64,000 bases of DNA from Torpedo marmorata. Its lineage: Eukaryota. The stretch covers positions 67,084,001 to 67,148,000 of the forward strand of contig OZ360223.1 in the NCBI GenBank assembly GCA_977017645.1, in the 5' to 3' direction. A program made the translations under genes and the position numbers. The notes under the pieces were generated by a model. That model was not told the origin of the DNA. It saw only the letters and a list, made by a program, of their open reading frames with translations, and did not search any database. Positions within the stretch are counted from its first letter, which is position 1; each line of letters opens with the position of its first letter. Of the stretch, positions 3,481 to 62,234 are shown piece after piece.

Positions 3481-3500
3481 GATCCTGAAAAATCAAAATA

Positions 3501-4389
3501 CCGTATATTTCGGCGTATAAGTCGGCTCGCGGATAAGTCGACCCCCCTTTTTCAGCCTTATTTCAATGGTTTTATTGTATATCCGGCGTATAAGTCGACC
3601 CCCAATTTTCGGGCTGTCCGGGCCTCCCAGCAACAACCCAAAATTTGTTACAACACCCCAATTGCCAAGTAACAAAGCTGTAAATTAAGCGAACCACGGC
3701 TACGTGTTGGCTCCCGGGCAGGAGCGGCGACCTCGTTCTCCCGGGCAGGAGCAGCGACCTCGTTCTCCCGGGCAGGAGCAGCGACCTCGTTCTCCCGGGC
3801 AGGTGCGGGGACCTCGTTCTCCCGAGCAGGTGCAGGGACCTCGTTCTCCCGGGCAGGTGCGGCGACGTCGTTCTCCCGAGCAGGTGCAGGGACCTCGTTC
3901 TCCTGGGCAGGTGCGGCGACCTAGTTCTCCCGGGCAGGAGCGGCGACCTAGTTCTTTCGGCAGGTCGGGAACGGACTCGGACTACGTGGCAGGAGCGGGA
4001 ACCTCACCCTACTGGCCAGGAGCCTCGGCTTACCGGGCAGGAGCGGCGACCTCAGGCTCCCAGGTAGGAGCGGGGACCTCGGGCTCTACAATTGTAGAAT
4101 GTCTGGGTGGTTTATGGCGGCGCCCGGCGGTGGGGAGGTGTCGGGGAGAGGCGGCACCGGCGGTGGGGAGGTGCTTCCAGCTTTGACCTATACGCCGAAT
4201 CAGTTTTTCATGGGTCGACTTATACGCCGAATCGGGTTTTCAAGGGTCGACTTATACGCCGAATCGGTGTGGAGTAGTTTTTGAGCTGATTTTAAGGTCT
4301 CAAAAGTATATCCGGCGTATAAGTCGACCCCCGTTTTTTGAGAGATTTTTGAGGGTTTCAAGACTCGACTTATACGCCGAAATATACGG
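3501..4389 (+). mobile_element. Non-autonomous pogo-family element (MITE) related to the transposon at 36719-38770
   Basis: TIRs CCGTATATTTCGGCGTATAAGTCG (3501) and CGACTTATACGCCGAAATATACGG (ends 4389), with TA TSD at 3499-3500 and 4390-4391. About 100 bp of each end match the ends of the autonomous element. Confidence 0.93.
3711..3965. repeat. 27-bp GC-rich minisatellite inside the MITE
   Basis: About 9 units of CTCCCGGGCAGGAGCGGCGACCTCGTT with variants; this produces the RSPGQ-repeat pseudo-ORF. Confidence 0.9.
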
Positions 4390-4391
4390 TA

Positions 4392-5745
4392 CATACAAAA
4401 ATTGCTGCAAATACTCAGTAGATCAGGCAATAGCAACAGAGGCAGAAACAGAATTAGCATTTCAGATTGATGACCTTTCATTAGAACCAGGAGAAACTAG
4501 AAATAAAATACATTTTAAATTGCAGAGCAATGGGAAGGGGTATAGAAAATAGAGAGAATCCCTGTTTTTGGGTGGAGACCAGGAAAGAGCGAATGACATT
4601 GGTGGTGATGTTACCTGAAGAGTGTGATTCGAGGTGCACCTTGAGAGTTACAAATAGATAATTGAAATCAGAAGAGGAGAGAAAAAAAGAAAAACTGAAT
4701 ATGGGAAATACAAGATACAAGAATGGAAACACTGGTTAGCTGAAATTGTGCAATTCAGTGTCAAGGTTGAGGCTAAAATGTACCAAGTTTGAAGAAGAGG
4801 TGTCACTTCTCAAGCTTGTGTTGAGTGAGTGCTTCCAACGTATCTCCCCTTTACCCAACATTGCTGAAAGCAACCTCAATGGAGGCTCTTATACTTCTTG
4901 CTCTCATGCCCTCTTCTCCCAGCCAAAGCTTCACATTTTTCCTGCCATATTCAACCAAACTTCCCCCATTATTTATGCCACTATTCAACACATTTTCCCC
5001 TCCCTCTATTTTCAGTATTCTGAAGAGACCTTTCCCTCTGTAATGTTCTGGTCCCAGGTCCACTGACACTCACCTCTCCTTTCAAGACACCTTACCGTGC
5101 AATTGCAAGAGATTCCCCACCTTCACTTTTAGAATCCTTTTGTTCAAGGATATAAATATTCCTTCCAGGTGAAGCAGCAATTTACTTGTCCTTCTTCCAA
5201 TCTAGTATGCTGATTTATAAGTGGTCTTTGCATGGGGGAAACCAGCAGCAGACATAGAGTTCCCAGAGGGACTCTCGAGTTTTCAGTTGCTACTCTCTTT
5301 ACTCCAATTTTCTCCCACTTGACCTGTTTTGGCTTCTGTAGCCTCTTAGTAAAGCTCAAAAAGCAGTTCCTCATCTTCTGACTTTGAGTGCTTGGGATTC
5401 AATGCTGAATGCAACTATTTTAGATATTCTAATCTTTTATCTCACAAATCTATTTCCTCTTACGCCGTGTTTTAATTCCAGTCTGATTTTCTGCATTTCA
5501 GTTTCATCTCTTCAAACCTGCACTTCCCAAGTTTTTCATCACTTGTGGCATTCAACTTTCCTGATCTCCAGCCTATCACAAACATTTTCTTTTTTTCCCT
5601 GCACCCTTTTCCCTTTCTTTGCAGCTTAAGAATTGTCTTCTACCTAACTTTTCTTGGTTCTGATGGGAAGTTATCTGAAATAAAAACCATGTTTCTTTCT
5701 CCTTACATGCAGCATGACCTGTGGAATGTTTCTAGTATGTTCTGC
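4392..5745 (+). mobile_element. Old Penelope-like element with an inverted 5' segment
   Basis: GIY-YIG remnant SFQVKQQFTCPSSNLV...GET at ~5160-5243 (+). The segment 4392-4830 is an inverted copy of the 3' part. Degenerate hammerhead tails at both ends (~4460-4488 on -, ~5656-5680 on +). Confidence 0.65.
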
Positions 5746-29744: not shown

Positions 29745-31118
29745 GAAGGCTGGTGATGAAGCATATCAGATCCTGTCTGAGCGGTGACATGGATCCATTC
29801 CAGTTCGCCTATCGTGGCAACAGGTCTACGGTGGATGCCATCTCACTGGCTCTACACACAGCCCTGGAACACCTGGACAGCAAAGATGCATACATCAGGA
29901 TGCTCTTTATCAACTACAGTTTGGCATTTAACACCATCATCCCCTCAAAACTGATCAGCAAACTCCAAGACCTGGGAGTTAACACCCCACTGCGTAATTG
30001 GATCATGGATTTCCTCACCTCCATATCACAATCAGTGAAGATTGGTAAGAACTTCTCCTCCACAATCTCCATCAGTACCACAGGGCTGTGTTCTTAGTCC
30101 CCTGCTCTACTCACTTTACACCTACGATTGTGTAGCTTGGTACAACAATAACATCATCTACAAATTTGCCGACGATACCACGGTAGTGGGTTGTATAAAG
30201 GAAGGGGGTGAGTCAGCATACAGGATGGAGATTGAAAACCTGGCTGAATGGTGCAACAACAACCTTGCACTCAATGTCACCAAAACTAAGGAGTTGATTG
30301 CTGACTTCAGGAAAGGAAAGCCAGAGGTATACAATCCAATGATCATTGGGGGATCAGAGGTGGAGAGGGTGAACAAATTTAAGTTCTTGGGAGTCACTAT
30401 CTTGGAGGATCTTTCCTGGACCCAACACACCAATGGCATCATGAAGAAAGCACGTCAGCGCCTCTACTTTCTCAGGAGTTTGCAGAGGTTTGGTATGTCA
30501 CCAGAAACCCTGGCAAATTTCTACAGATGTGTGGTGGAAAGTGTGCTGACCGGCTGCATCATGGTCTGGTATGGGAACAACAATATCCCTGAGCATAAAG
30601 CCCTCCAAAAGGTAGTGGACACAGCCCAGGACATTACTGGCAAAACCCTCCCCACTATTGAGTACATCTACAGGGAACGCTGCCGTCGGAGAGCAGCAGC
30701 AATCATCAAAGACCCTCACCACCCAGCACATGCTCTGTTCTTGCTGCTGCCATCAGGGAAGAGGTATAGGTGCCACAAGACTCGCACCACCAGGTTTAGG
30801 AACAGCTGCTACCCCTCCACCATCAGAATCCTGAATGACAAAGTCAAATCAGAGACTCATTTAAGGACTCTTACTCGTGCACTTTATTGATTTTTCTTTG
30901 CTCTCTCTGTATTGCACAGTCAGTTTCATTTTCATTTTCTTGTTTCATTCGTTACCTGTTAGCAGTTCTTTTGATTGTTTACATGTTTATGCTGAGTACA
31001 ATTTACTTTTTGCACTGCCAATTAGTGGTAATTCTGCCACGCCCGCAGGAAATTAATCTCAGGGTTTTATGTGACGTTATGTATGTACTCTGACAATAAA
31101 TCTGAAATCTGAAATCTG
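29745..31118 (+). mobile_element. Rex1/Babar LINE, 5'-truncated, RT with one frameshift (~30078)
   Basis: [17 protein letters not shown]...LHTALEHLD; [15 protein letters not shown]; KFADDT; tail TGACAATAAA(TCTGAAA)n. Inserted into a CR1 3' remnant (~29560-29740). Confidence 0.93.
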
Positions 31119-33160: not shown

Positions 33161-33235
33161 CAGTACACAGCAGCCTGCTTAATAGGCACCCCACTTCACC
33201 ACCAACACACAGCAGCAGCAGTTTGTAGTCTACAA

Positions 33236-33609
33236 CAGTGGTTTTCAAACTGCACCCTAAACTCACATTTCACCTTAAGCAATCCCTATGCCATAAGTGC
33301 TCTGTGATTAGTAAGGGATTGCTTAAGGTGGTATGTGAGTGGAAAGAAAAAGTTTGAAAACCACTGTTTTAATCATACCTAATTGACTCGTTATGTGCAC
33401 GGTTTCATAACTCCAAAGGAAATGGGTCAATGACAATTTTTCTCAAGCAAAATATTTCAGTAACAATTGGGTCTAGGGCAGTGGTTCTCAACCTTCCCTT
33501 CCCACTCACATACCACCTTAAGCAATCCTTTACCAATCACAGAGCACCTATGGCATAGGGATTGCTTAAGGTGGAATGTGAGTTTAGGGGGGCAGTTTGA
33601 AAACCACTG
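33236..33609. mobile_element. hAT (Charlie-like) composite MITE
   Basis: TIR CAGTGGTTTTCAAAC...GTTTGAAAACCACTG; 8-bp TSD GTCTACAA (33228-33235) / GTCTACAG (33610-33617). Inserted in an old LINE remnant (33190-33905). Confidence 0.9.
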
Positions 33610-35388: not shown

Positions 35389-36202
35389 ATTCAAGATTCA
35401 AGATTCAATTTATTGTCATAGTAATAAGACAGTGCCATATACCACAAAATTTCTTTTTGCCTGCTGCAAGGCAAACAGATTCGCCATCGGCAGAAATTGC
35501 CTAAGCGCCTCTAACATTCCTTACAGTCAGAGAAAGAGAAGCAAAAGAGATTCCCCCAGAGTCACCGAGTGTCCATTGATTTGCCTCCAGCGCTTCCGCA
35601 GCCACACAGAGTCCAGTCCAAACGATCGGCATTCCGAGCTCCAGATCCGAACCTCCAACACGGTCAGGTCGCCCTCGGCACCCCCTCACATCCCGGTTCC
35701 GATACCTGGTACTCCTCCAGCCAGTTCGAGCCAACCTCCAGCAGTCCGCAGCCCGTCGTGAGTCCCCCGACAACAGTCTCCAGCAGCCCACAGCCTCCGC
35801 GGGTTCCTCGCCTCGAGTCACCAGCAGCCCGCCACATGCACTGGTCCTTCAGCCTCAGAGCCCCTCACCGGTCTGCCGCTGTGCTCACCGTCCTCCGTTT
35901 CTCCTTCTCAGTCGGGGGTGATCTTCCCGTCCACTGGTGCCCTGCTCCAGTCCCCCGCTTCCCCGGAGTCTGCAGCCCCTCGTGGCTGCTGCCGATTAAT
36001 AGGTGCTGCCATCTTGGGTGCAGACCCCGCGGTCGCGGAATCTCAAATAAAACCACCATCGTCTCCTTTAACGGGCCATTCAAAGCCCGTGCGGAACCGA
36101 CGGCAGTCGACTGGACGGCTGGACCCCGCAGGAGCGCTGTATCTCCGCTCCCACGCTCCCCGCGGGGTCCGCTACAGCGGCTCCAGCAGCGCCGCCATCT
36201 TC
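35389..36202 (-). mobile_element. Non-autonomous GC-rich retroelement with Rex1-like tail, copy B
   Basis: Reverse complement of 615-1466. 5' end GAAGATGGCGGCGC on the minus strand; 3' tail abuts (TA)n. Confidence 0.85.
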
Positions 36203-36337
36203 AAAATTAAATATTTATATATATATAAACATATACAACATATATATATGTGTGTGTTTATATATACCGTATGTGTGTGTGTGTATAATTTGACTCACAT
36301 ACCAGACCCCTTACTATATAACCGAGGTATCCCTTAC

Positions 36338-36405
36338 AGCAACTACCCCTGAAGAGTGGAAAGATCCACGAAACAAGCTTGTCGGGCACATGTGAGTAGT
36401 GTGCT
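36338..36405 (+). ncRNA. Type I hammerhead ribozyme, copy 1
   Basis: CCC-CTGAAGA(36349-55)-GTGGA-AAGA-TCCAC-GAAA-C-AAGCTT-GTC^GGG. All core nucleotides are canonical; predicted cleavage after C36383. Stem I is extended by ACTA/TAGT and AGCA/TGCT. Confidence 0.9.
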
Positions 36406-36481
36406 TTTCTGTTTACTTATTTATTTAGCTCCACATTACGTGTTGAGCACTATTTTATAGTGAAGATCAACCTTACCTAAA

Positions 36482-36517
<36 letters not shown>

Positions 36518-36551
36518 GTAAACAGAAAAGCACACTACTCACATGTGTTAC

Positions 36552-36619
36552 AGCAACTACCCCTGAAGAGTGGAAAGATCCACGAAACAAGCTTGTCGGG
36601 CACATGTGAGTAGTGTGCT
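36552..36619 (+). ncRNA. Type I hammerhead ribozyme, copy 2
   Basis: Identical to copy 1; core CTGAAGA at 36563-36569, predicted cleavage after C36597. Confidence 0.9.
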
Positions 36620-36844
36620 TTTCTGTTTACTTATTTATTTAGCTCCACATTACGTGTTGAGCACTATTTTATAGTGAAGATCAACCTTACCTAAACTCTA
36701 TATATATATATATATATACCGTATATTTCGGCGTATAAGTCGACCCTTGATACCCTCAAAAATGTCTCAAAAAACGGGGGTCGACTTATATGCCGGATAT
36801 ACTTTTGAGACCTTAAATTCAGCTCAAAATCGAGTTCACGCCGA

Positions 36845-36968
36845 TCCGGCGTATAAGTCGACCCCTGAAAACACGATTCGGCGTATAAGTCGACCCCTGA
36901 AAACACGATTCGGCGTATAAGTCGACCCCTGAAAACACGATTCGGCGTATAAGTCGACCCCTGAAAAA
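36845..36968. repeat. 31-bp subterminal tandem repeat (about 4 units) of the pogo element
   Basis: CGGCGTATAAGTCGACCCCTGAAAACACGAT repeated; contains the TIR core. Confidence 0.9.
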
Positions 36969-37030
36969 CCAAAAAAATACCCGACTGCAACAAATTTTCA
37001 TTGACATTTTAATTGAAAACAACAAGACAT

Positions 37031-54246: not shown

Positions 54247-54933
54247 ATAACTCTGAATAATCAAATCTGTCTGTGGTGTTGAGGCAGGCAGGCAAAAGGT
54301 TCAACTTCAAAACCCAGCCCCTTAGATTTCAGAGTACTTCATGTTTCCTAACATACGTCTATGTGTAGGATGAAAGAATTTAAGACAAAGCAAGAAGATT
54401 CAGCCCATCATGCCCAGGCTATTCAATGTCTGAACCATCACCAAACACAGTTTTAACCACCAGCAGTTACATTACACCTTTAATGTAGAGAGAGATCTCA
54501 AGGAGTTTCACAGACATAATTAAAAATAACGAGGCTCAGTTTTCTTAATCAGATGGGAAATTGCAACTGTTCGAACCAAAGTAACTTCTGTATTCATTTC
54601 AGAATGCTTTTGGAGTAATTAATATTTTAATTTTTTTTAAAAAGAGACAATATTGACCTGGTTTCATATGCTTTCATGAATACACGTCAAGTAGAATAGA
54701 TGTCACAGAGGAATCTCCCTGACTACCCAACCATGTTGCCTGACTGTCTCTGATTCCCTAATAAATGGGACAAAGACCAGATCTGGGGGAGGGGTCACAT
54801 GAGGCAGCAACAAGGAAAGACATGTAAATGTGAGCTCCCTAGAGTGTGTCAATAGTTATCATTTATTTTGCTATGTTATTGTTAAAACTGCATTCTTAAA
54901 AATTTCAAAACAAATCTCATCTGCTACTCGTGC

Positions 54934-55801
54934 ATGTCACGATATAATCTTAGAAGCAAGAATGACATTTTACCACTAACTGAAGAAACAACCAGAGCTT
55001 CGTATTTTGCAGAGATGGCGACCGGCTCTGGAAAAGGAGGAAAGCTTTCCCTCGAGACAGTCATGATGGCCATTCGGGAAAGAAAGGAAGAAATATCAAC
55101 ACGAAGCGACACTAAAACAACTGACATCCAGTCCTCGTTAATTAAAATAGAATCTGCATTATCAACACTAGCTGACCAAGTTAAGGAAATCGAAGGGTGC
55201 ATATCGGCTAATGAAGACAACATAATAGAAGTCACCATGCACGTCGAGGAATTAGAGAAAGAGGTGCAGTTGTTGAAAGACAAGGTGGACGACTTGGAAA
55301 ACAGGAGCAGGCAAAACAATATTTGGATACTTAATCTCCCTGAGAAAGATGAAGGTCGCGATGCAGCTGGATTTTTGGAACAAATCCTATCAGAAATCTT
55401 TGGCATCGAAAACTTTCCTGCTCCCATTACCTGCGAGAGAACCCACCGCTTGGGAAAACCCCCCCACCGGTGGTGATGACTCACGGAGACCGAGACCTAT
55501 AATCGCGAAGCTCCTCAACTTTAAGAACAAGGAGAAGATTATGCGCCTGGCCAGGCAAAAAGGAGAGATTCACTATGAAAATAACAGGATTTACATATTT
55601 CCCGACTGTTGCCCGAGATTGCAACACCTTAAGGACACCTTTAAGGAGGTTAAGGTTAAGAAGAGACTACGGGAGAGGGGCATCAACTATTCCCTGCACT
55701 ATCCAGCTAAACTTCGGATTATGCATAAGGGAGTCACCAAGTGGTTTGTTACTCCTGCTGCAGTGGTGGAGTTTTTGAAATCTATCGACAATAATTACTG
55801 A
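54934..55801 (+). pseudogene. L1 ORF1p (coiled coil, RRM, CTD), frameshifted near 55460
   Basis: KVDDLENRSRQNNI.I.NLPE; ERTHR; PRPIIAKL; IYIFPD; YPAKLRI. Confidence 0.92.
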
Positions 55802-56385
55802 TAGTCTTCTTGCTCCGTGCACAACGGACGGGTCATTGTGATGCTTATGCACTCTATACATTGGGTGACATTTACTTAAGTGATCATTGGATGGACCGCT
55901 GTGATCCTGATATGAGGACACGAGTAAGTTTCACAACATGGATTCTTTCCCACCTGGCTATTATGGAAAATACATCTCCTTAATTTTTGACACAACACTT
56001 TGTCTCACACTAGTGCTTTAAGATATGTTTGATTTGTGATGTTTCTTTTACTAAACATTTGCATATGTTATAATCTAAGTTATTTTCATGTTGCTTTACC
56101 AGGTTTTATGTACATGCTCCTAGGCTTTGATTGTACTCGTTTAGAGGCTGTAGAATCCAGAATTCTTAATTAATGTGGTTTAATGCTCATTACATTTTTT
56201 TGTAACTGTTGAGAACTCTTGTATATTTAGAGAGAGTAGCCTACCCCCTGGGGATGTTTAGTTTAGGGGTCGTTAACGGGTGGGTCTCATACGGGGATAT
56301 GGTATGGTTCTGTTTTTTTAATTACTCTCACTTTTATAGTTCTCGCTCTTTATGCTCTGAGGTATCTATTTTGTTTCTTTAGGGT

Positions 56386-59300
56386 ATGACTAGTCAACTT
56401 AAAATAATCTCCTTGAATGTAAGGGGGATTAATTCTCCAATTCAGAGGGAAAAAATTCTTACATATTTAAAGAGACATTCCACTGATATAGCGTTTATTC
56501 AAGAGACTCACCTCTCTAACACAGAACATATAAAGTTAAAAAGGGATTGGGTTGGACATGTTTACTATTCTTCATTTACCACAAAACCAAGGGGAGTAGC
56601 CATACTCGTTAATAAAAACGTGAGGTTTAAACTAATATCAACAGAAAAAGACAAAGAAAGGCAGACTTCTTTTAGTTAATTGTGAACTGAATATAAACAG
56701 GGTCACACTGATTAATGTATATGGCCCCAACCACGACGATCCCGCTTTTTTTAATGATTTGGTATTAAAACTTACGACAGCTGTGGACGACGTCTGGTTA
56801 GTGGTGACTTCAATTTGGTTCTAGACCCAGCAATGGATCGATCCACACCATGATCTTTTAATCGTTCAAGGGCAGCGTCGGTTCTGGATCAGGGTATGAG
56901 GGATTTGGGGTTATGTGATATTTGGCGTCAACTTAATCCAAATGTAAAGGACTTTTCCTTCTTTTCAAATGTCCATGGCTCCTATTCTAGAATTGACATG
57001 TTTTTAATATCCCAAAGTATGGTATCCAGGGTTACTAAATGCTCCTATTACTGGCTATACTTTCTGACCATAATCCAATAAAGATGACTTGGAGGATGGA
57101 TATTACACAATCATCATCTTATAGTTGGAGATTTAAACATATAAGCTTAATGATCCCGAATTTCTCAGATTTATGAACGGCCACATTGATTTATTTATGG
57201 AAACCAATTCAAATTCTTCTTCCCACGCTAACATATGGGAGGCTTTAAAAGCATATATGAGAGGACAAGTCCTTTCATAGAGCACGCATAAGATAAGAGT
57301 AAAAAGGAAAACTCTTGTATCTGTTGAGGAAGAGATTCGAAATCTTGAACGTGAACATGCTTTTACTAAAAGTGAAGAAGTACTTAATACATTGGCTTTA
57401 AAACGGATCCAATATAATAATTTATGTACAAGTAAAGCTGAGGCAGATATGTCCAGGACTAACTATCACTATTACGAATTCGGAAACAAAACTAGTAAGT
57501 TATTAGCCTGGCAAATAAAAAAGGAAGAGACCGATAGATTTATCCAATCTATTGTTATGGATGATGGCAGATCCCTCATTAATTCTCAGGACATAAATCA
57601 AGAATTTAGAAAGTTTTATGAAACACTATATAAGACAGATCATGATATAGAAAATACCAAAGCAACACGTTTCTTGAACTCATTAAATCTGCCTAAGGTA
57701 GATCCTAAGGACAAAGATCATCTTGACACTGATATATCTGAAGAAGAGGTTCTTGGCGCTATGAAGTCTCTACAGAACAATAAAGCTCTGGGGCCAGATG
57801 GCTTTCCAATTGAATACTTTAAAGCCTTTTCAGATAAGTTTTTAACCCCTTTAACAAATATGTTTAAGGAAGCACTGACTAATAAAACTCTGCCTAGTTG
57901 TCAGAAATTCGCTGCAATAACATTACTACCAAAACCTGAGAAGGATTGTCAAAAATGTACTTCTTATCGGTCTCTTAGTCTTTTGAATTCAGATTACAAA
58001 ATTTTATCAAAATTAATTGCATTAAGAATAGATGACATTATCCCTAAAATTATTAATGCTGATCAGACAGGCTTTGTCAGAAACTGATATGGATCTGACA
58101 ATGTACGGAGACTTTTTCATGTAATGGAAGCGGCTCATATGCAAAATGATCCCATGTTGATAATGTCGATGGATGCGGAGAAGGCGTTCAACAGGATTGA
58201 ACCTAGTTTCTTTTTGCAAACTCTTAAAGCAATGAATTTTGGAGAGAGATTTATTCAATACATTGAAACATTTTTTGCTGGTCCTAAAGCTCAAATTCTA
58301 ACTAATGGAGTCCTGTCGGGTGCCTTCCCGCTATCCAGAGGCGTCCGCCAAGGTTGCCCAAGTGCTCCGCTGCTGTTCTCAATAGCTATTGAACCATTGG
58401 CTATTGCTATTCGTTCTAATCCCACCATTACTGGCATTAAATTTGGCTCAAATGAACACAAACTAGCCCTTTATGCTGACAATGTTTCCAACAATACAGT
58501 GCTGCTTCTGGATATAAATTAAACCTTTTAAAAAGTGAAGTCATGCCTTTTAATATATACAATAATGACATCAAGAACCTAGTCAAACCCTTGCAATGGT
58601 GCCCGAATGGATTTAAATATTTAGGCATAGAAATTAGGAGATCTGCAGACAAAATCCTTAAAGATAATTACATCAAATTATTGAATCGGGTTAAATTAGA
58701 TCTACAGAAATGGAGGGAACTGCCATTATCTTTAATTGGAAGAATGAACTTAATTAAAATGAATATTCTCCCCAAATTTCTATATTTATTCCAATGTGTC
58801 CCATTTAAAATTCCCAAAAGTCTATTTAATGAATTAAACAAATCAATGTCCAGCTTCTTATGGAAAGGTAAAGTCCCTAGAATCAAACTCTCAAGTCTTT
58901 AGGCCCCGTATTCTAAGGGAGGATTAAATCTTCCTAATGTTAAATGTTTCTACCTTGCAGCTCAATTCCATCCAATATGGTGTTGGTTGCACTCTGAGGA
59001 CAATGAGGCTAGATGGCTTCCTATTGAACAACATCAATTAAAGAATGTTCCCTTAAAAGTTCTTCCTTTTTTAACATCTAAGAAAGCACTCTTAAATATT
59101 ACTAAGAACCCTATAATTCTAAATTATTTTGCAGTATGGCAAGAAGCTCACGCAGTTATTGGAATAAATACCTCATTATTTCAGAAAACTCCTCTGTGGA
59201 ATAACCCCAATATCCCCCACCTGATTGCAGATGGAATTTTTAAAAATTGGGTTAATAGTGGTATAAAAACAGTTGAAGATTTATATAGCCAAGATAACTT

Positions 59301-60124
59301 CGCCAATTTTCAACAATTGTCTAGTAAATTCAATCTACCAAATCATAATTTATTCAAATATTTTCAGATTAGACACTGTGTCCATAACAGTTATACAGAC
59401 TATCCTCAAATTCCAACAGAATCCCAGTTTGAAAAGCACTTGCTTAGTGAATCCCTGTACACTACAAAGGGTCTGACATCGATTATTTATATTATTTTAA
59501 ACAGTAGCTTGCCAATCTATACTAAGAGTGATATTAAAAATAAATGGGAATCAGATCTTGAATGCAATTACGATGATGCTGATTGGTGTAATATTCTTCA
59601 AATGTCTCAAACTGTATTAATCTCAACTAAACATAGACAAATACAATTTAATATCTTTAATAGGACCTACTACACTCCACATAGACGGCACAAAATATAC
59701 CATAACCCCTCTCCCAATTGTCAGAGATGTAAAACATGTGACGGAGATTTACTTCATATGCTTTGGAATTGCTCTTATCTGGAAGACTTTTGGAAATACA
59801 TTGTTAGAATAATCTCAGATATTATAAAAACTGAAATTTCATTTGACCCTAGGGTCTGGATTTTGGGAGATCTACAAGGTCTTAATGTGAATCACAAAAA
59901 AAAACAACTTTATATTACTTGCGGCCACAGCTGGGAAAAAGTGTATCCTACAAAACTGGAAATCTGAATTTCCTCCTTCACAGAGGCAATGGTTAAATGA
60001 GTTAACATCCTATAGTACACCTAAAAAGATCTTGTATAGTGTGAGGAGGAAACTAGCAACATATGAAAAAATATGGGGCTCTTTTTTGGCCTTATTTCCA
60101 TCATTACACCTCCTCGGCTACTGA
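56386..60124 (+). pseudogene. L1 ORF2p (APE endonuclease, RT, CCHC), multiple stops and frameshifts
   Basis: IISLNVRGINSP...IQETHL; GPDGF; DAEKAF; RGVRQGCPSAPLLF; LYADN; CQRC...HMLWNC. Confidence 0.95.
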
Positions 60125-61679
60125 ATTAGTTCGGATACCTGTCCTCCCGTACTACATTTTACGCTGGTTCAAATAGTACAAAGGCAAATTCAAACTAGGT
60201 TGTTTATATCAGGCATGCGGAGGGAGGCCTTGGCTTGGAGGCTGTTGCTGTGGAGATGTGCTCATGGAATTCGTAAACAATATTCGCCAGCTGGTTTCTT
60301 GCAAAAATGTTTGCAAGTCATTTTAACCCTTACACCTACTATCTGCTTAATGTAGTAATATATACCTTATTAATATACATTAGGACCTCATACCTTACTT
60401 GGTCGATTTCAATTGTGAACGTGGGAGAAATTTCTACCATACCAGGGTGGGGGGTGGGAGGGAGCACTTTGTTTGTTTGTTTGTTTGCTTGTTTTTTGTT
60501 TTGTTTTTTTTTCTTCTGTGAATCTGTTTATAAAAATATGGCTATTTTGCTTCAATAAAAACATCTTTTAAAAAAAAGACTAGATCTGGGGAACAACCAT
60601 CATATTAAATCACTTTCTATTACAACATGATTGCTGTTGATTGTTCTGGGAACATCCTTTAACTGCACCACATACTATTTATGCTTCAACTTCTACCCTG
60701 CTGAAGCATTACATTTCTGTTGTAGTTCTGAGGATGAGAAAATCTGCATATAATTGTTTCATGTTTATCATTTACAAGAGTTATAACATTTATCAAACAA
60801 TTTATTTTCATTCTCTTGTGGTTTCCTGTTTATGATGGCAGGAAGTTCATTTTTCTTCCATGTGGTCATATTTATCAAGCAAGGGAATTGTGTGCTCAAT
60901 TACACCTGTGTTCAGTTATCATAACGGGAATTACAAATCTGTATGTGAAATTGTTGTGCTTTAATTGTGTGTGCATAGTAATTGTATCTGCTATTAAAAT
61001 GTGTTGATTAGTCCTGCCATGAATATGGAGAGTTGAAATTCAGTGATCCAAACTGGCCTCACTAACTTTGACATCTCTGTTGGTATGTTCTGGGAGTGAG
61101 GGGGGAAAAGAGCAGAGAGGCAGTGTAAGAAACCCAAGCTAACAACTGCCCCCACCCAAAAGGCTCCAGAAACAAAACTTCAAATGTTTGCTTGTCTTTC
61201 TGCAATACCTTTGTTGGATTACACTGAAAAGCCAGATCCCTGTCAACTTGCTCACTTTTCCGTAAAAGAATACCATCAATAGACAAATGGATATACCCTG
61301 TGTGTTGATCAGGAAAATTAATCTGCCCATTTGAATTGCCTCTCACATCAACTTTAGCTTTTCATTCTAATTTCTGTAAAACAATATTTCTTGCAGCTGA
61401 AAATAAGGCCTCTTTAATTTATAAATTTAAACACATGCCTATTCCAGTTTGTCACATTTGATAATTTCAAGTCACTTTCAAAACCCCTCTCACCATTTTT
61501 CCACAAGGCCACTGTTCAAATATCCAGTTTATGTTTTAGTTGACAATCTTAATTGAATGAAGTAAATTTTAAATTGTGGTTGCAATTTAATTGGATGTAT
61601 ATACATACTTTACCACATGGTGGCGGTCTAATCATGGTTTTTAATGTTGGCTGCACTCGTCAATGTGAATGCAAGTATA

Positions 61680-61933
61680 AGACGAAAATCTGTAGACACC
61701 GTGGTTGAAGTAAAAAACACAAATGCTGGAGAAACTCAGCAGGTCAAACAGTGTCTTTTATGTAGCAAAGGTAGAAATACATAACCGACGTTTCGGGCTT
61801 GAGCCCTTCATCAAAGTGGAGGGCTCAAGCCCGAAAGGGCTCAAGCCCAAAACGCCGGTTATGTATTTCTACCTTTGCTACATAAAAGACACTGTTTGAC
61901 CTGCTGAGTTTCTCCAACATTTGTGTTTTTTAC
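61680..61933. mobile_element. Head-to-head palindromic Penelope-tail insertion with hammerhead motifs
   Basis: Inverted arms of ~98 bp (61709-61807 and 61836-61934); 14-bp TSD TGAATGCAAGTATA at 61666-61679 and 61934-61947. Confidence 0.9.
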
Positions 61934-62234
61934 TGAATGCAAGTATACCAAGGGTGCAACAAATTCTGTTCATTGTGAACTTTGTGTACTGTGTTCTGGA
62001 GGAGACACTAAATATAATTATTTAACAAGTAGTGAAACAGGCCCTAATGTTTGTTAGAAGAAGCACTGATACTGCCAAATGCATGTGTTCAGTAAATTGG
62101 TTCTGTCGCAAGTTAATACTTGTTCAGGGGGTTCTGTAATGTATATTTGTGATAGCCATCACTATGGTTTGGTCTGGAAGATGAAAGGCTAAACTTTTAC
62201 CTGACAATACAAAGCCTCCCATATTTCCAGATCC

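What the first reader, a model, noticed from the sequence alone, without database searches (positions are those of the whole stretch)
36290..36718. Tandem, identical, canonical hammerhead ribozymes: candidate elasmobranch retrozyme or Penelope pLTR unit
Seen: two identical 151-bp repeats, each with a complete type-I hammerhead (stem I CCC/GGG plus extension, core CUGAAGA, 5-bp stem II with AAGA loop, GAAAC, palindromic stem III ACAAGCUUGU, GUC cleavage triplet). Each repeat ends in (TA)n, and a third partial copy lies at 39811. TGACTCA (36291) and TATATAA (36315) sit just upstream of copy 1. Known: type-I hammerheads with palindromic stem III occur in Penelope-like element terminal repeats and in non-coding metazoan retrozymes, which can yield small circular RNAs. 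Inference: this is a young, microsatellite-targeting, non-coding ribozyme retroelement, distinct from the minimal-hammerhead tails elsewhere in the window. Read-through transcription would excise a 214-nt RNA (36384-36597).
Basis: partly seen in the sequence, partly recalled or inferred. Interest (0 to 1): 0.85.

Follow-up and report, generated by a model that had tools for sequence, protein, structure and literature searches.

The report
Hammerhead-bearing Penelope-type retroelement ends
Two real self-cutting RNA motifs sit in the leftover ends of a Penelope-type jumping gene that landed in a TA repeat, a known kind of element rather than a new replicating RNA.

Summary
In detail: two identical 151-bp copies (36334-36484, 36548-36698) each carry a complete type-I hammerhead; the full descriptor hits 2 times against 0.005 in shuffles. 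(1) The spacer holds a 35-38-bp inverted piece of the same element, head-to-head with copy 2. (2) A 14-bp duplication frames the locus; a second hammerhead family in the window has the same head-to-head anatomy and a 14-bp target duplication. (3) The ribozyme is not canonical: helix I has 3 contiguous pairs, and helix III is stable only as a dimer. Shared 3' ends 101 nt past the cut, variable 5' ends, inverted arms and (TA)n targets are published hallmarks of Penelope-like element (PLE) insertions. The 214-nt period therefore looks like a by-product of this insertion, not a retrozyme monomer. No PLE ORF was found in the window, so an autonomous or non-autonomous master is undecided; host taxon and cleavage are untested. 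Tandem type-I hammerhead repeats derived from PLEs are already reported for a chondrichthyan. Verdict: new member of a known kind, low interest.

The parts
36259..36272 (+). Left copy of a 14-bp direct duplication (TATATATACCGTAT): probable target-site duplication; alternatively a pogo excision footprint next to (TA)n
   Evidence: longest shared word between left and right flanks; 4 of 4834 random window pairs reach 14 bp; 2 of 11 (TA)>=4 runs on the plus strand are followed by CCGTAT, namely these two
36273..36333 (+). 5' extension unique to copy 1: (GT)6, TGACTCA (36291), TATATAA (36315). Possibly the promoter part of the terminal repeat; not shown to belong to the element
   Evidence: no second copy in the window (longest shared word 12 nt); the motif pair occurs in 7 of 100 shuffles
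36334..36484 (+). Copy 1 of the 151-bp element end; 3' end 101 nt past the ribozyme cut
36346..36386 (+). Type-I hammerhead 1: helix I 3 bp, helix II 5 bp, palindromic helix III, GUC cut at 36383/36384
36485..36512 (.). (TA)14 microsatellite: 3' flank of copy 1 and left flank of the inverted arm
36510..36547 (-). Inverted arm: exact reverse complement of 36387-36424 (35 bp plus 3 bp shared with the TA run). Begins 3 nt after the cut, at the palindrome CACATGTG, and is joined head-to-head to copy 2
36548..36698 (+). Copy 2, 5'-truncated 50 nt before the cut, same 3' end; contains hammerhead 2 (36560-36600, cut 36597/36598)
36699..36718 (.). (TA)10 microsatellite, 3' flank of copy 2
36711..36724 (+). 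Right copy of the 14-bp duplication; takes in the first 6 bp of the neighbouring pogo/Tigger-like transposon end
36719..38770 (-). Neighbour, not part of the element: pogo/Tigger-like DNA transposon, 456-aa stop-free frame at 37031-38401; far end runs into an N gap
   Evidence: DDE_1 E 1.1e-26, BrkDBD, HTH_Tnp_Tc5; ends shared with 3498-3609 and 4185-4395
39801..39843 (+). 43-bp island between N runs: third copy starting 13 nt before the cut (39812-39843). Its first 8 nt match the reverse complement of the unit at 36456-36463, so it is probably another head-to-head junction
   Evidence: background 0.4% of 8-mers, 1 of 312 among 8-mers ending in TATA; noticed after the fact

Best explanation
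The locus consists of 5'-truncated 3' ends (pseudo-LTR remnants) laid down by the reverse transcriptase/GIY-YIG machinery of a Penelope-like element that prefers (TA)n. Shown: identical 3' ends, three different 5' starts, a head-to-head inverted arm, (TA)n flanks, a 14-bp flanking duplication, and a hammerhead whose helix III is a 10-nt palindrome. Inferred: the PLE protein nicks TA-rich DNA and starts reverse transcription at a fixed internal site about 100 nt downstream of the ribozyme cut, and copying stops early, giving short ends. Copy 1 went in first, cutting 6 bp into the end of an older pogo element. The inverted-plus-direct pair then went into the (TA)n beside it, with the second DNA end primed at the AU-rich stretch near 36417-36424 or by fold-back (one complex event is not excluded). 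The ribozyme is a PLE-type variant that should cut mainly as a dimer by pairing the palindromes of two copies; its normal job is inferred to be trimming tandem PLE transcripts. The 214-nt spacing is specific to this locus. The master element is either an autonomous PLE (about 0.6; Neptune-like by target preference, not tested) or a non-autonomous dependent of one (about 0.4).
For: Anatomy. Published PLE hallmarks: 5' truncation, partial tandems, an adjacent inverted 5'-truncated copy, an optional 30-40-bp tail and (TA)n bias (PMC8557442, passages); head-to-head inverted repeats with palindromes at the junction, 8-10-bp TSDs and a TATA box in the pLTR (PMC3846280, passages); insertion next to earlier copies and dimer-dependent palindromic stem III (PMC6765202, passages); cleavage of AT-rich DNA, extension of both strands, and RT start 111-118 nt into an ORF whose hammerhead cut is at nt 26, i.e. 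85-92 nt past the cut by my arithmetic (PMC11167929), against 101 nt here. Internal control: a minimal-hammerhead family forms a head-to-head insertion at 61680-61933 with a 14-bp TSD and a tail on one arm only. External comparison: an otherwise unrelated family with the identical helix III in 6 contigs of one MAG has shared 3' ends at +100 to +105 in 7 of 7 copies, a following tail sequence in 3 of 7, variable 5' ends and one head-to-head copy. Published PLE-type variants with a palindrome of the same length: Aedes aegypti(1), PLE-linked, and Saccoglossus(2), not marked as PLE-linked (PMC4209133 Fig. S3 text). Helix III costs +1.3 kcal/mol as a monomer hairpin and gives -12.9 as a duplex.
Against: No PLE ORF is linked: 0 of 28 long window frames matched a GIY-YIG family (4 matched RT-associated families of LINE-like fragments elsewhere), and a scan for recalled PLE motifs found only 2 isolated DKG words; ORFs under 120 aa were not scanned with Pfam. 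In typical PLE insertions the inverted copy is at the 5' edge, here it is in the middle, which needs two events or a complex one. The inverted arm ends 60 nt short of the direct 3' end, more than the 30-40-bp tail. One duplication frames the whole locus, which also fits a single insertion followed by local DNA duplication. The 14-bp duplication is partly low-complexity and longer than the 8-10 bp in PMC3846280. Only 3 copies were available, two adjacent and one between gaps.
Confidence: 0.65

Rival explanations
1. One PLE-type insertion (copy 1), followed by a local DNA-level duplication: replication slippage or template switching at the (TA)n copied part of copy 1 backwards and then forwards, making the inverted arm and copy 2.
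For: A single 14-bp duplication frames all of it; all pieces are 100% identical; the left junction of the inverted arm shares 3 nt with the TA run.
Against: Head-to-head arms also occur in the second hammerhead family of the window with a clean TSD, in the MAG family (L020) and probably in the third copy, so they are a routine product of insertion.
Confidence: 0.15
2. The 214-nt cut-to-cut unit is the monomer of a non-LTR retrozyme that replicates through a small rod-like circular RNA.
For: Two complete hammerheads 214 nt apart; the length is in the 170-400 nt range of animal retrozymes (PMC7229834); the fragment folds into a long rod (MFE -84.8 linear, -80.5 circular); it would meet the working definition of at least two hammerhead-bearing tandem units in 10.64898/2026.07.22.740005 if detected as a tandem.
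Against: Copy 1 is not preceded by the spacer, so there is no circular permutation, unlike the 321-bp MAG family where the sequence after the 3' end is the start of the next unit. The rod is a perfect inverted copy with no G-U pairs or bulges, as expected of a fresh duplication. The third copy has another left junction. Tandem Repeats Finder did not report the pair.
Confidence: 0.08
3. The duplication or the third copy is an assembly artefact at a repeat-rich, gapped scaffold position.
For: Four N runs lie within 4.8 kb downstream; the third copy is a 43-bp island; PLE tandem and inverted structures are known to upset short-read assemblies (PMC8557442).
Against: Each copy has its own left junction, the TA runs differ (14 and 10 units), no N lies within 2 kb of the pair, and the same anatomy occurs at 61680-61933.
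Confidence: 0.1

Closest known systems
pLTR ends of endonuclease-positive Penelope-like elements (Penelope/Poseidon, Neptune, Nematis) with type-I hammerhead variants (PMC4209133, PMC8557442, PMC3846280, PMC11167929)
   Same: Type-I hammerhead with short helix I and palindromic helix III; fixed 3' end about 100 nt past the cut; 5' truncation; partial tandem; head-to-head inverted arm with a palindrome at the junction; microsatellite target; target-site duplication; TATA-like word upstream.
   Different: No RT/GIY-YIG ORF seen; inverted arm in the middle of the locus; no bulged base before helix II as in most minimal PLE hammerheads; no 30-40-bp tail seen in this family.
Animal non-LTR retrozymes (PMC7229834; 10.64898/2026.07.22.740005, which reports them in 1 of 1 chondrichthyan genome sampled, mean consensus 363 bp, and derives them from PLE pLTRs)
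   Same: Two type-I hammerheads in direct orientation a few hundred bases apart, low GC, no ORF at the locus, long TSD, dimer-type helix III.
   Different: The period is not a true repeated monomer; helix I is 3 bp, not the canonical 6 bp with loop-loop contacts; no array; no RNA evidence.
Hammerhead family in 6 contigs of MAG assembly JAVBJR01 (L001, L008, L010, L014, L020, L023)
   Same: Identical 14-nt GAAA/helix III/cut segment; compensatory change in helix I (CCC/GGG here, CAC/GUG there); 3' end at +100 to +105; variable 5' ends; head-to-head copy.
   Different: No similarity beyond the ribozyme; 4-bp helix II, up to 7-bp helix I; true 321-bp monomer with more-than-unit-length copies; flanks not (TA)n.

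Membership tests
Type-I hammerhead ribozyme | Conserved core (CUGANGA, GAAA, UH) with helices I, II, III; ends in helix I | tested here: met
   descriptor met twice, 0.005 expected; Rfam Hammerhead_1 22.5 bits, below the gathering score of 34
Type-I hammerhead ribozyme | Self-cleavage at the predicted site | not testable with these tools
   needs an in vitro assay; 8 of 9 Xenopus dimer elements tested in 10.64898/2026.07.22.740005 gave no product
Canonical metazoan type-I hammerhead | Helix I of 6 bp and helix II of 4 bp with loop 1-loop 2 tertiary contacts | tested here: not met
   3 contiguous helix-I pairs, 5-bp helix II; only a weak distal extension (-6.0 kcal/mol) beyond an asymmetric loop; definition from PMC4209133
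Penelope-like element insertion | Hammerhead in the terminal repeat near a fixed 3' end, variable 5' truncation | tested here: met
   3' end +101 in 2 of 2 complete copies; 5' starts differ in 3 of 3 direct copies
Penelope-like element insertion | Partial tandem and head-to-head inverted 5'-truncated copy | tested here: met
   probable second case
Penelope-like element insertion | Target-site duplication and microsatellite bias | tested here: inconclusive
   14-bp duplication present but a pogo footprint is an alternative; (TA)n follows 2 of 2 complete 3' ends, which are adjacent and not independent
Penelope-like element insertion | Optional 30-40-bp 3' tail | tested here: inconclusive
   none in 2 of 2 complete copies; the tail is optional
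Autonomous PLE (Neptune, Poseidon, Nematis) | ORF with telomerase-like RT and GIY-YIG endonuclease; clade by RT phylogeny | not testable with these tools
   no such ORF found in the window; no eukaryotic genome collection was available to find the master copy
Non-LTR retrozyme | Tandem repeat of one monomer, each unit with a hammerhead | tested here: not met
   the spacer occurs once and contains an inverted piece of the unit; copy 1 has a different upstream sequence; not called by Tandem Repeats Finder
Non-LTR retrozyme | Abundant linear and circular monomer RNA | not testable with these tools
   no RNA data

The most novel reading that the evidence does not exclude
The locus is a snapshot of retrozyme birth: PLE ends piling into one (TA)n have created, 30 nt behind a TATA box, a double hammerhead that cuts as a dimer and releases a 214-nt viroid-like rod with a perfect 38-bp stem that can circularise and be re-copied. 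In addition, the inverted arm starting 3 nt after the cut would be a genomic record of a self-cleaved RNA serving as reverse-transcription template, an in vivo role for PLE hammerheads that is still open.
Probability: 0.1. Interest if true: 0.6.

Novelty: new member of a known kind. Interest (0 to 1): 0.2.

Why it matters
As it stands it is a tidy example of a known class: a recently active, (TA)n-associated, hammerhead-bearing PLE-type family, probably one of several in this genome. Its use is practical: identical young copies with several junction types make a family in which one could ask whether 5' truncation points cluster at the ribozyme cut, and whether adjacent pLTR remnants give rise to retrozymes, as proposed in 10.64898/2026.07.22.740005. 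In PMC11167929 ribozyme cleavage was not needed for insertion in vitro and no RNA reads began at the cut, so a positive result would bear on an open question. One locus cannot settle it.

Tried and rejected
Rfam at gathering threshold: 0 hits in 64 kb. At E-value level the top hits were plant microRNA models that only reflect the inverted repeat. Single-strand folding of three stretches gave z-scores of 0.13, 0.52 and -1.04, so no support from folding energy; constrained folding put the monomer hammerhead 5-7 kcal/mol above the ensemble in 5 of 5 contexts, but the constraint was strict and the energy model ignores the core, so I gave it no weight. Six-frame Pfam scans of the neighbourhood did not run, so short broken PLE fragments near the locus remain unscanned with Pfam; the motif scan used recalled motifs and is weak. 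Search for the master element: the genome-contig scan found no copy of this family (best BLAST match only the 14-16-nt ribozyme segment); 18 of 24 loci lack helix I or II and lie in gene-dense DNA (ORF cover 0.69-1.00), i.e. chance matches; 6 of 24 are the unrelated family (ORF cover 0-0.18); 0 of 8 frames from those loci matched Pfam. Host taxon: one search returned 4 unnamed LINE proteins at 30-51% identity and no organism. A fold-back model with CCC/GGG microhomology predicts CCC at the inverted junction; it is absent, so that exact model is rejected. The idea that the inverted arm was copied from the self-cleaved RNA rests on 1 of 4 mapped 5' junctions (-50, -13, +4, +73) and the palindrome at the same place explains it equally; kept only as a lead. 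Literature: 7 searches listed no paper on this family or on elasmobranch hammerheads specifically (one search was swamped by unrelated shark papers, so it is uninformative); the helix III word had 0 hits in the supplement of PMC8557442 and its core had 0 hits in the flattened supplement text of PMC4209133 (file 1 not searchable). PMC5850863 is not held. Repbase and Dfam could not be checked, and the supplements of the 2026 preprint, which list retrozyme families per species, were not seen and may already contain this family.

Full report
Observation. The sequence is as described. The stretch 36334-36484 is repeated exactly at 36548-36698, each copy followed by (TA)n, period 214. Each copy has helix I CCC/GGG, core CUGAAGA, a 5-bp helix II with G10.1-C11.1 and an AAGA loop, GAAA, the perfect palindrome ACAAGCUUGU and a GUC cut site at 36383/36384 and 36597/36598. 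A full type-I descriptor finds exactly these two in the window and a mean of 0.005 in 200 shuffles. Rfam recognises both as Hammerhead_1 below the gathering score (22.5 of 34 bits, E 0.0066). A third piece of 32 bp lies at 39812-39843 between N runs.

The 63-bp spacer is (TA)14 plus the exact reverse complement of 36387-36424, joined head-to-head to copy 2. That arm starts 3 nt after the cut, at the palindrome CACATGTG, and shares 3 nt with the TA run at its other end. The two direct copies agree for only 50 nt upstream of the cut; copy 1 is preceded by 61 bp found nowhere else in the window. The whole locus is framed by a 14-bp duplication (36259-36272 and 36711-36724) whose right copy includes the first 6 bp of a pogo/Tigger-like transposon. 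Random window pairs reach 14 bp in 4 of 4834 trials, but the word is partly low-complexity and its left copy could be a pogo excision footprint (my inference from recalled Tc1/mariner footprints). The 43-bp island starts with 8 nt that match the reverse strand of the unit, probably another head-to-head junction (background 1 of 312; noticed after the fact).

The ribozyme. Canonical metazoan type-I motifs have a 6-bp helix I and 4-bp helix II with loop contacts (PMC4209133, parts 1-2 of 4 read). Here helix I has 3 contiguous pairs and a weak distal extension; helix III costs +1.3 kcal/mol as a hairpin and gives -12.9 as a duplex of two palindromes. This is the dimer-type variant described for PLEs; the supplement of that paper (file 2, parts 1-2 of 3) lists motifs with a palindrome of the same length from an Aedes aegypti PLE and from Saccoglossus. 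Activity is untested, and PLE hammerheads are reported as weak in vitro (PMC6765202, passages) or protein-assisted (PMC11167929).

Why PLE. Published hallmarks of PLE insertions are 5' truncation, partial tandems, an adjacent inverted 5'-truncated copy, an optional 30-40-bp tail and microsatellite bias (PMC8557442, passages; PMC8969392, passages); head-to-head repeats with palindromes at the junction, 8-10-bp TSDs and a TATA box in the pLTR (PMC3846280, passages); and insertion beside earlier copies. In the anole Poseidon element the protein nicks AT-rich DNA, extends both strands and starts reverse transcription 85-92 nt past the hammerhead cut by my arithmetic (PMC11167929, parts 1-2 of 4); the 3' end here is at +101. 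In the window, a minimal-hammerhead family (7 pieces aligned) forms a head-to-head insertion at 61680-61933 with a clean 14-bp TSD and a tail on one arm. In the genome-contig scan, 6 of 24 loci, all from one MAG and nearly free of long ORFs (probably eukaryotic DNA binned in; inference), carry an otherwise unrelated hammerhead family with the identical helix III, a compensatory change in helix I, 3' ends at +100 to +105 in 7 of 7 copies, variable 5' ends and one head-to-head copy. That family has a true 321-bp monomer with more-than-unit-length copies, which shows what a retrozyme looks like; the window locus lacks this.

Against and open. No PLE ORF was found: 28 of the 50 frames of at least 120 aa were sent to Pfam (those overlapping N runs and some overlapping alternative frames were left out) and gave LINE-like RT pieces far away and the pogo transposase; shorter fragments were only scanned with recalled motifs. 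The sequence upstream of copy 1 belongs to another dispersed repeat (35389-36181), so the copy is a solo end. Whether the master is an autonomous PLE or a non-autonomous dependent cannot be told. The inverted arm lies in the middle, not at the 5' edge, and one duplication frames everything, so local DNA duplication after one insertion remains a fair rival (0.15); assembly error (0.1) and a true 214-nt retrozyme (0.08) are less likely. The host was not established by any search; 'elasmobranch' agrees only with my recollection of shark and ray repeats.

Mechanism, most likely (0.65). A PLE RT/endonuclease nicked the TA-rich border of the pogo copy and inserted a 5'-truncated end (copy 1); a further insertion into the adjoining (TA)n left the inverted arm and copy 2. 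Read-through transcription would place two palindromes on one RNA and could release the 214-nt fragment, which folds as a rod because of the inverted arm, but that RNA is a locus-specific chimera. The anatomy is shown; the order of events, the enzyme and the cleavage are inferred.

Novelty. Hammerheads in PLE terminal repeats are known across animals (PMC4209133), animal retrozymes are known (PMC7229834, part 2 of 6 and passages), and a 2026 preprint reports tandem type-I hammerhead repeats in the one chondrichthyan it sampled and derives such repeats from PLE pLTRs (10.64898/2026.07.22.740005, parts 1-3 of 5; supplements not seen). My searches listed no description of this particular family, but repeat libraries could not be checked. 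Verdict: new member of a known kind, interest 0.2. The boldest reading left open, retrozyme birth in progress with a self-cleaved RNA recorded as RT template, has probability about 0.1 and would merit 0.6.

Noticed in passing
L001, L008, L010, L014, L020, L023 (contigs of assembly JAVBJR01; e.g. L010 1865-2336): A bacterial MAG holds at least 6 contigs of ORF-poor, AT-rich DNA carrying a hammerhead repeat family: 321-bp monomer, more-than-unit-length copies, optional tail, head-to-head copy, and a segment resembling polymerase III A and B boxes (by eye; ARAGORN found no tRNA). Probably a eukaryotic retrozyme or hammerhead SINE mis-binned into the MAG.
   Followed up: partly
window 61666-61947: Head-to-head insertion of the minimal-hammerhead family with a 14-bp TSD and a tail on one arm; further pieces at 1710, 22664, 28660, 29140, 54148. 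Several have TTGA in place of CTGA in the core.
   Followed up: yes
window 36392-36428: Nine nt after the cut the sense strand has a splice-donor-like GTGAGT followed by a pyrimidine tract and TTTAG, 37 nt in all, too short for a usual vertebrate intron; may be the start of a retained PLE intron or chance (0.037 per 151 bp).
   Followed up: no
window 36471-36477 and the tail of the MAG family: Both unrelated families carry CTTACCT near the 3' end (an antisense splice-donor consensus; resemblance to the U1 snRNA 5' end is recalled). Chance about 0.01 per 151 bp; unexplained.
   Followed up: no
window 36719-38770, 3498-4395: pogo/Tigger-like element with a stop-free 456-aa transposase frame and internal 32-bp and 54-bp tandem repeats; a non-autonomous relative with the same ends at about 3500-4390.
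   Followed up: partly
window 40018-40590 (-): Broken frame with 23-residue charged repeats followed by a CxxC word, cut off by the N gap; looks like a Helitron N-terminus (recalled; only a sub-threshold STPRs match, E 0.076). Repeated 60-95-bp pieces at 40611-41064 beside it.
   Followed up: partly
window 54886-59967 and 30039-30890: LINE remnants: coiled-coil ORF1-like frame and a frameshifted RT/zf-RVT ORF2 (50% identical to unnamed proteins); another RT C-terminal piece at 30039.
   Followed up: partly
window 33231-33609: A 380-bp self-inverted element with internal repeats, MITE-like.
   Followed up: no
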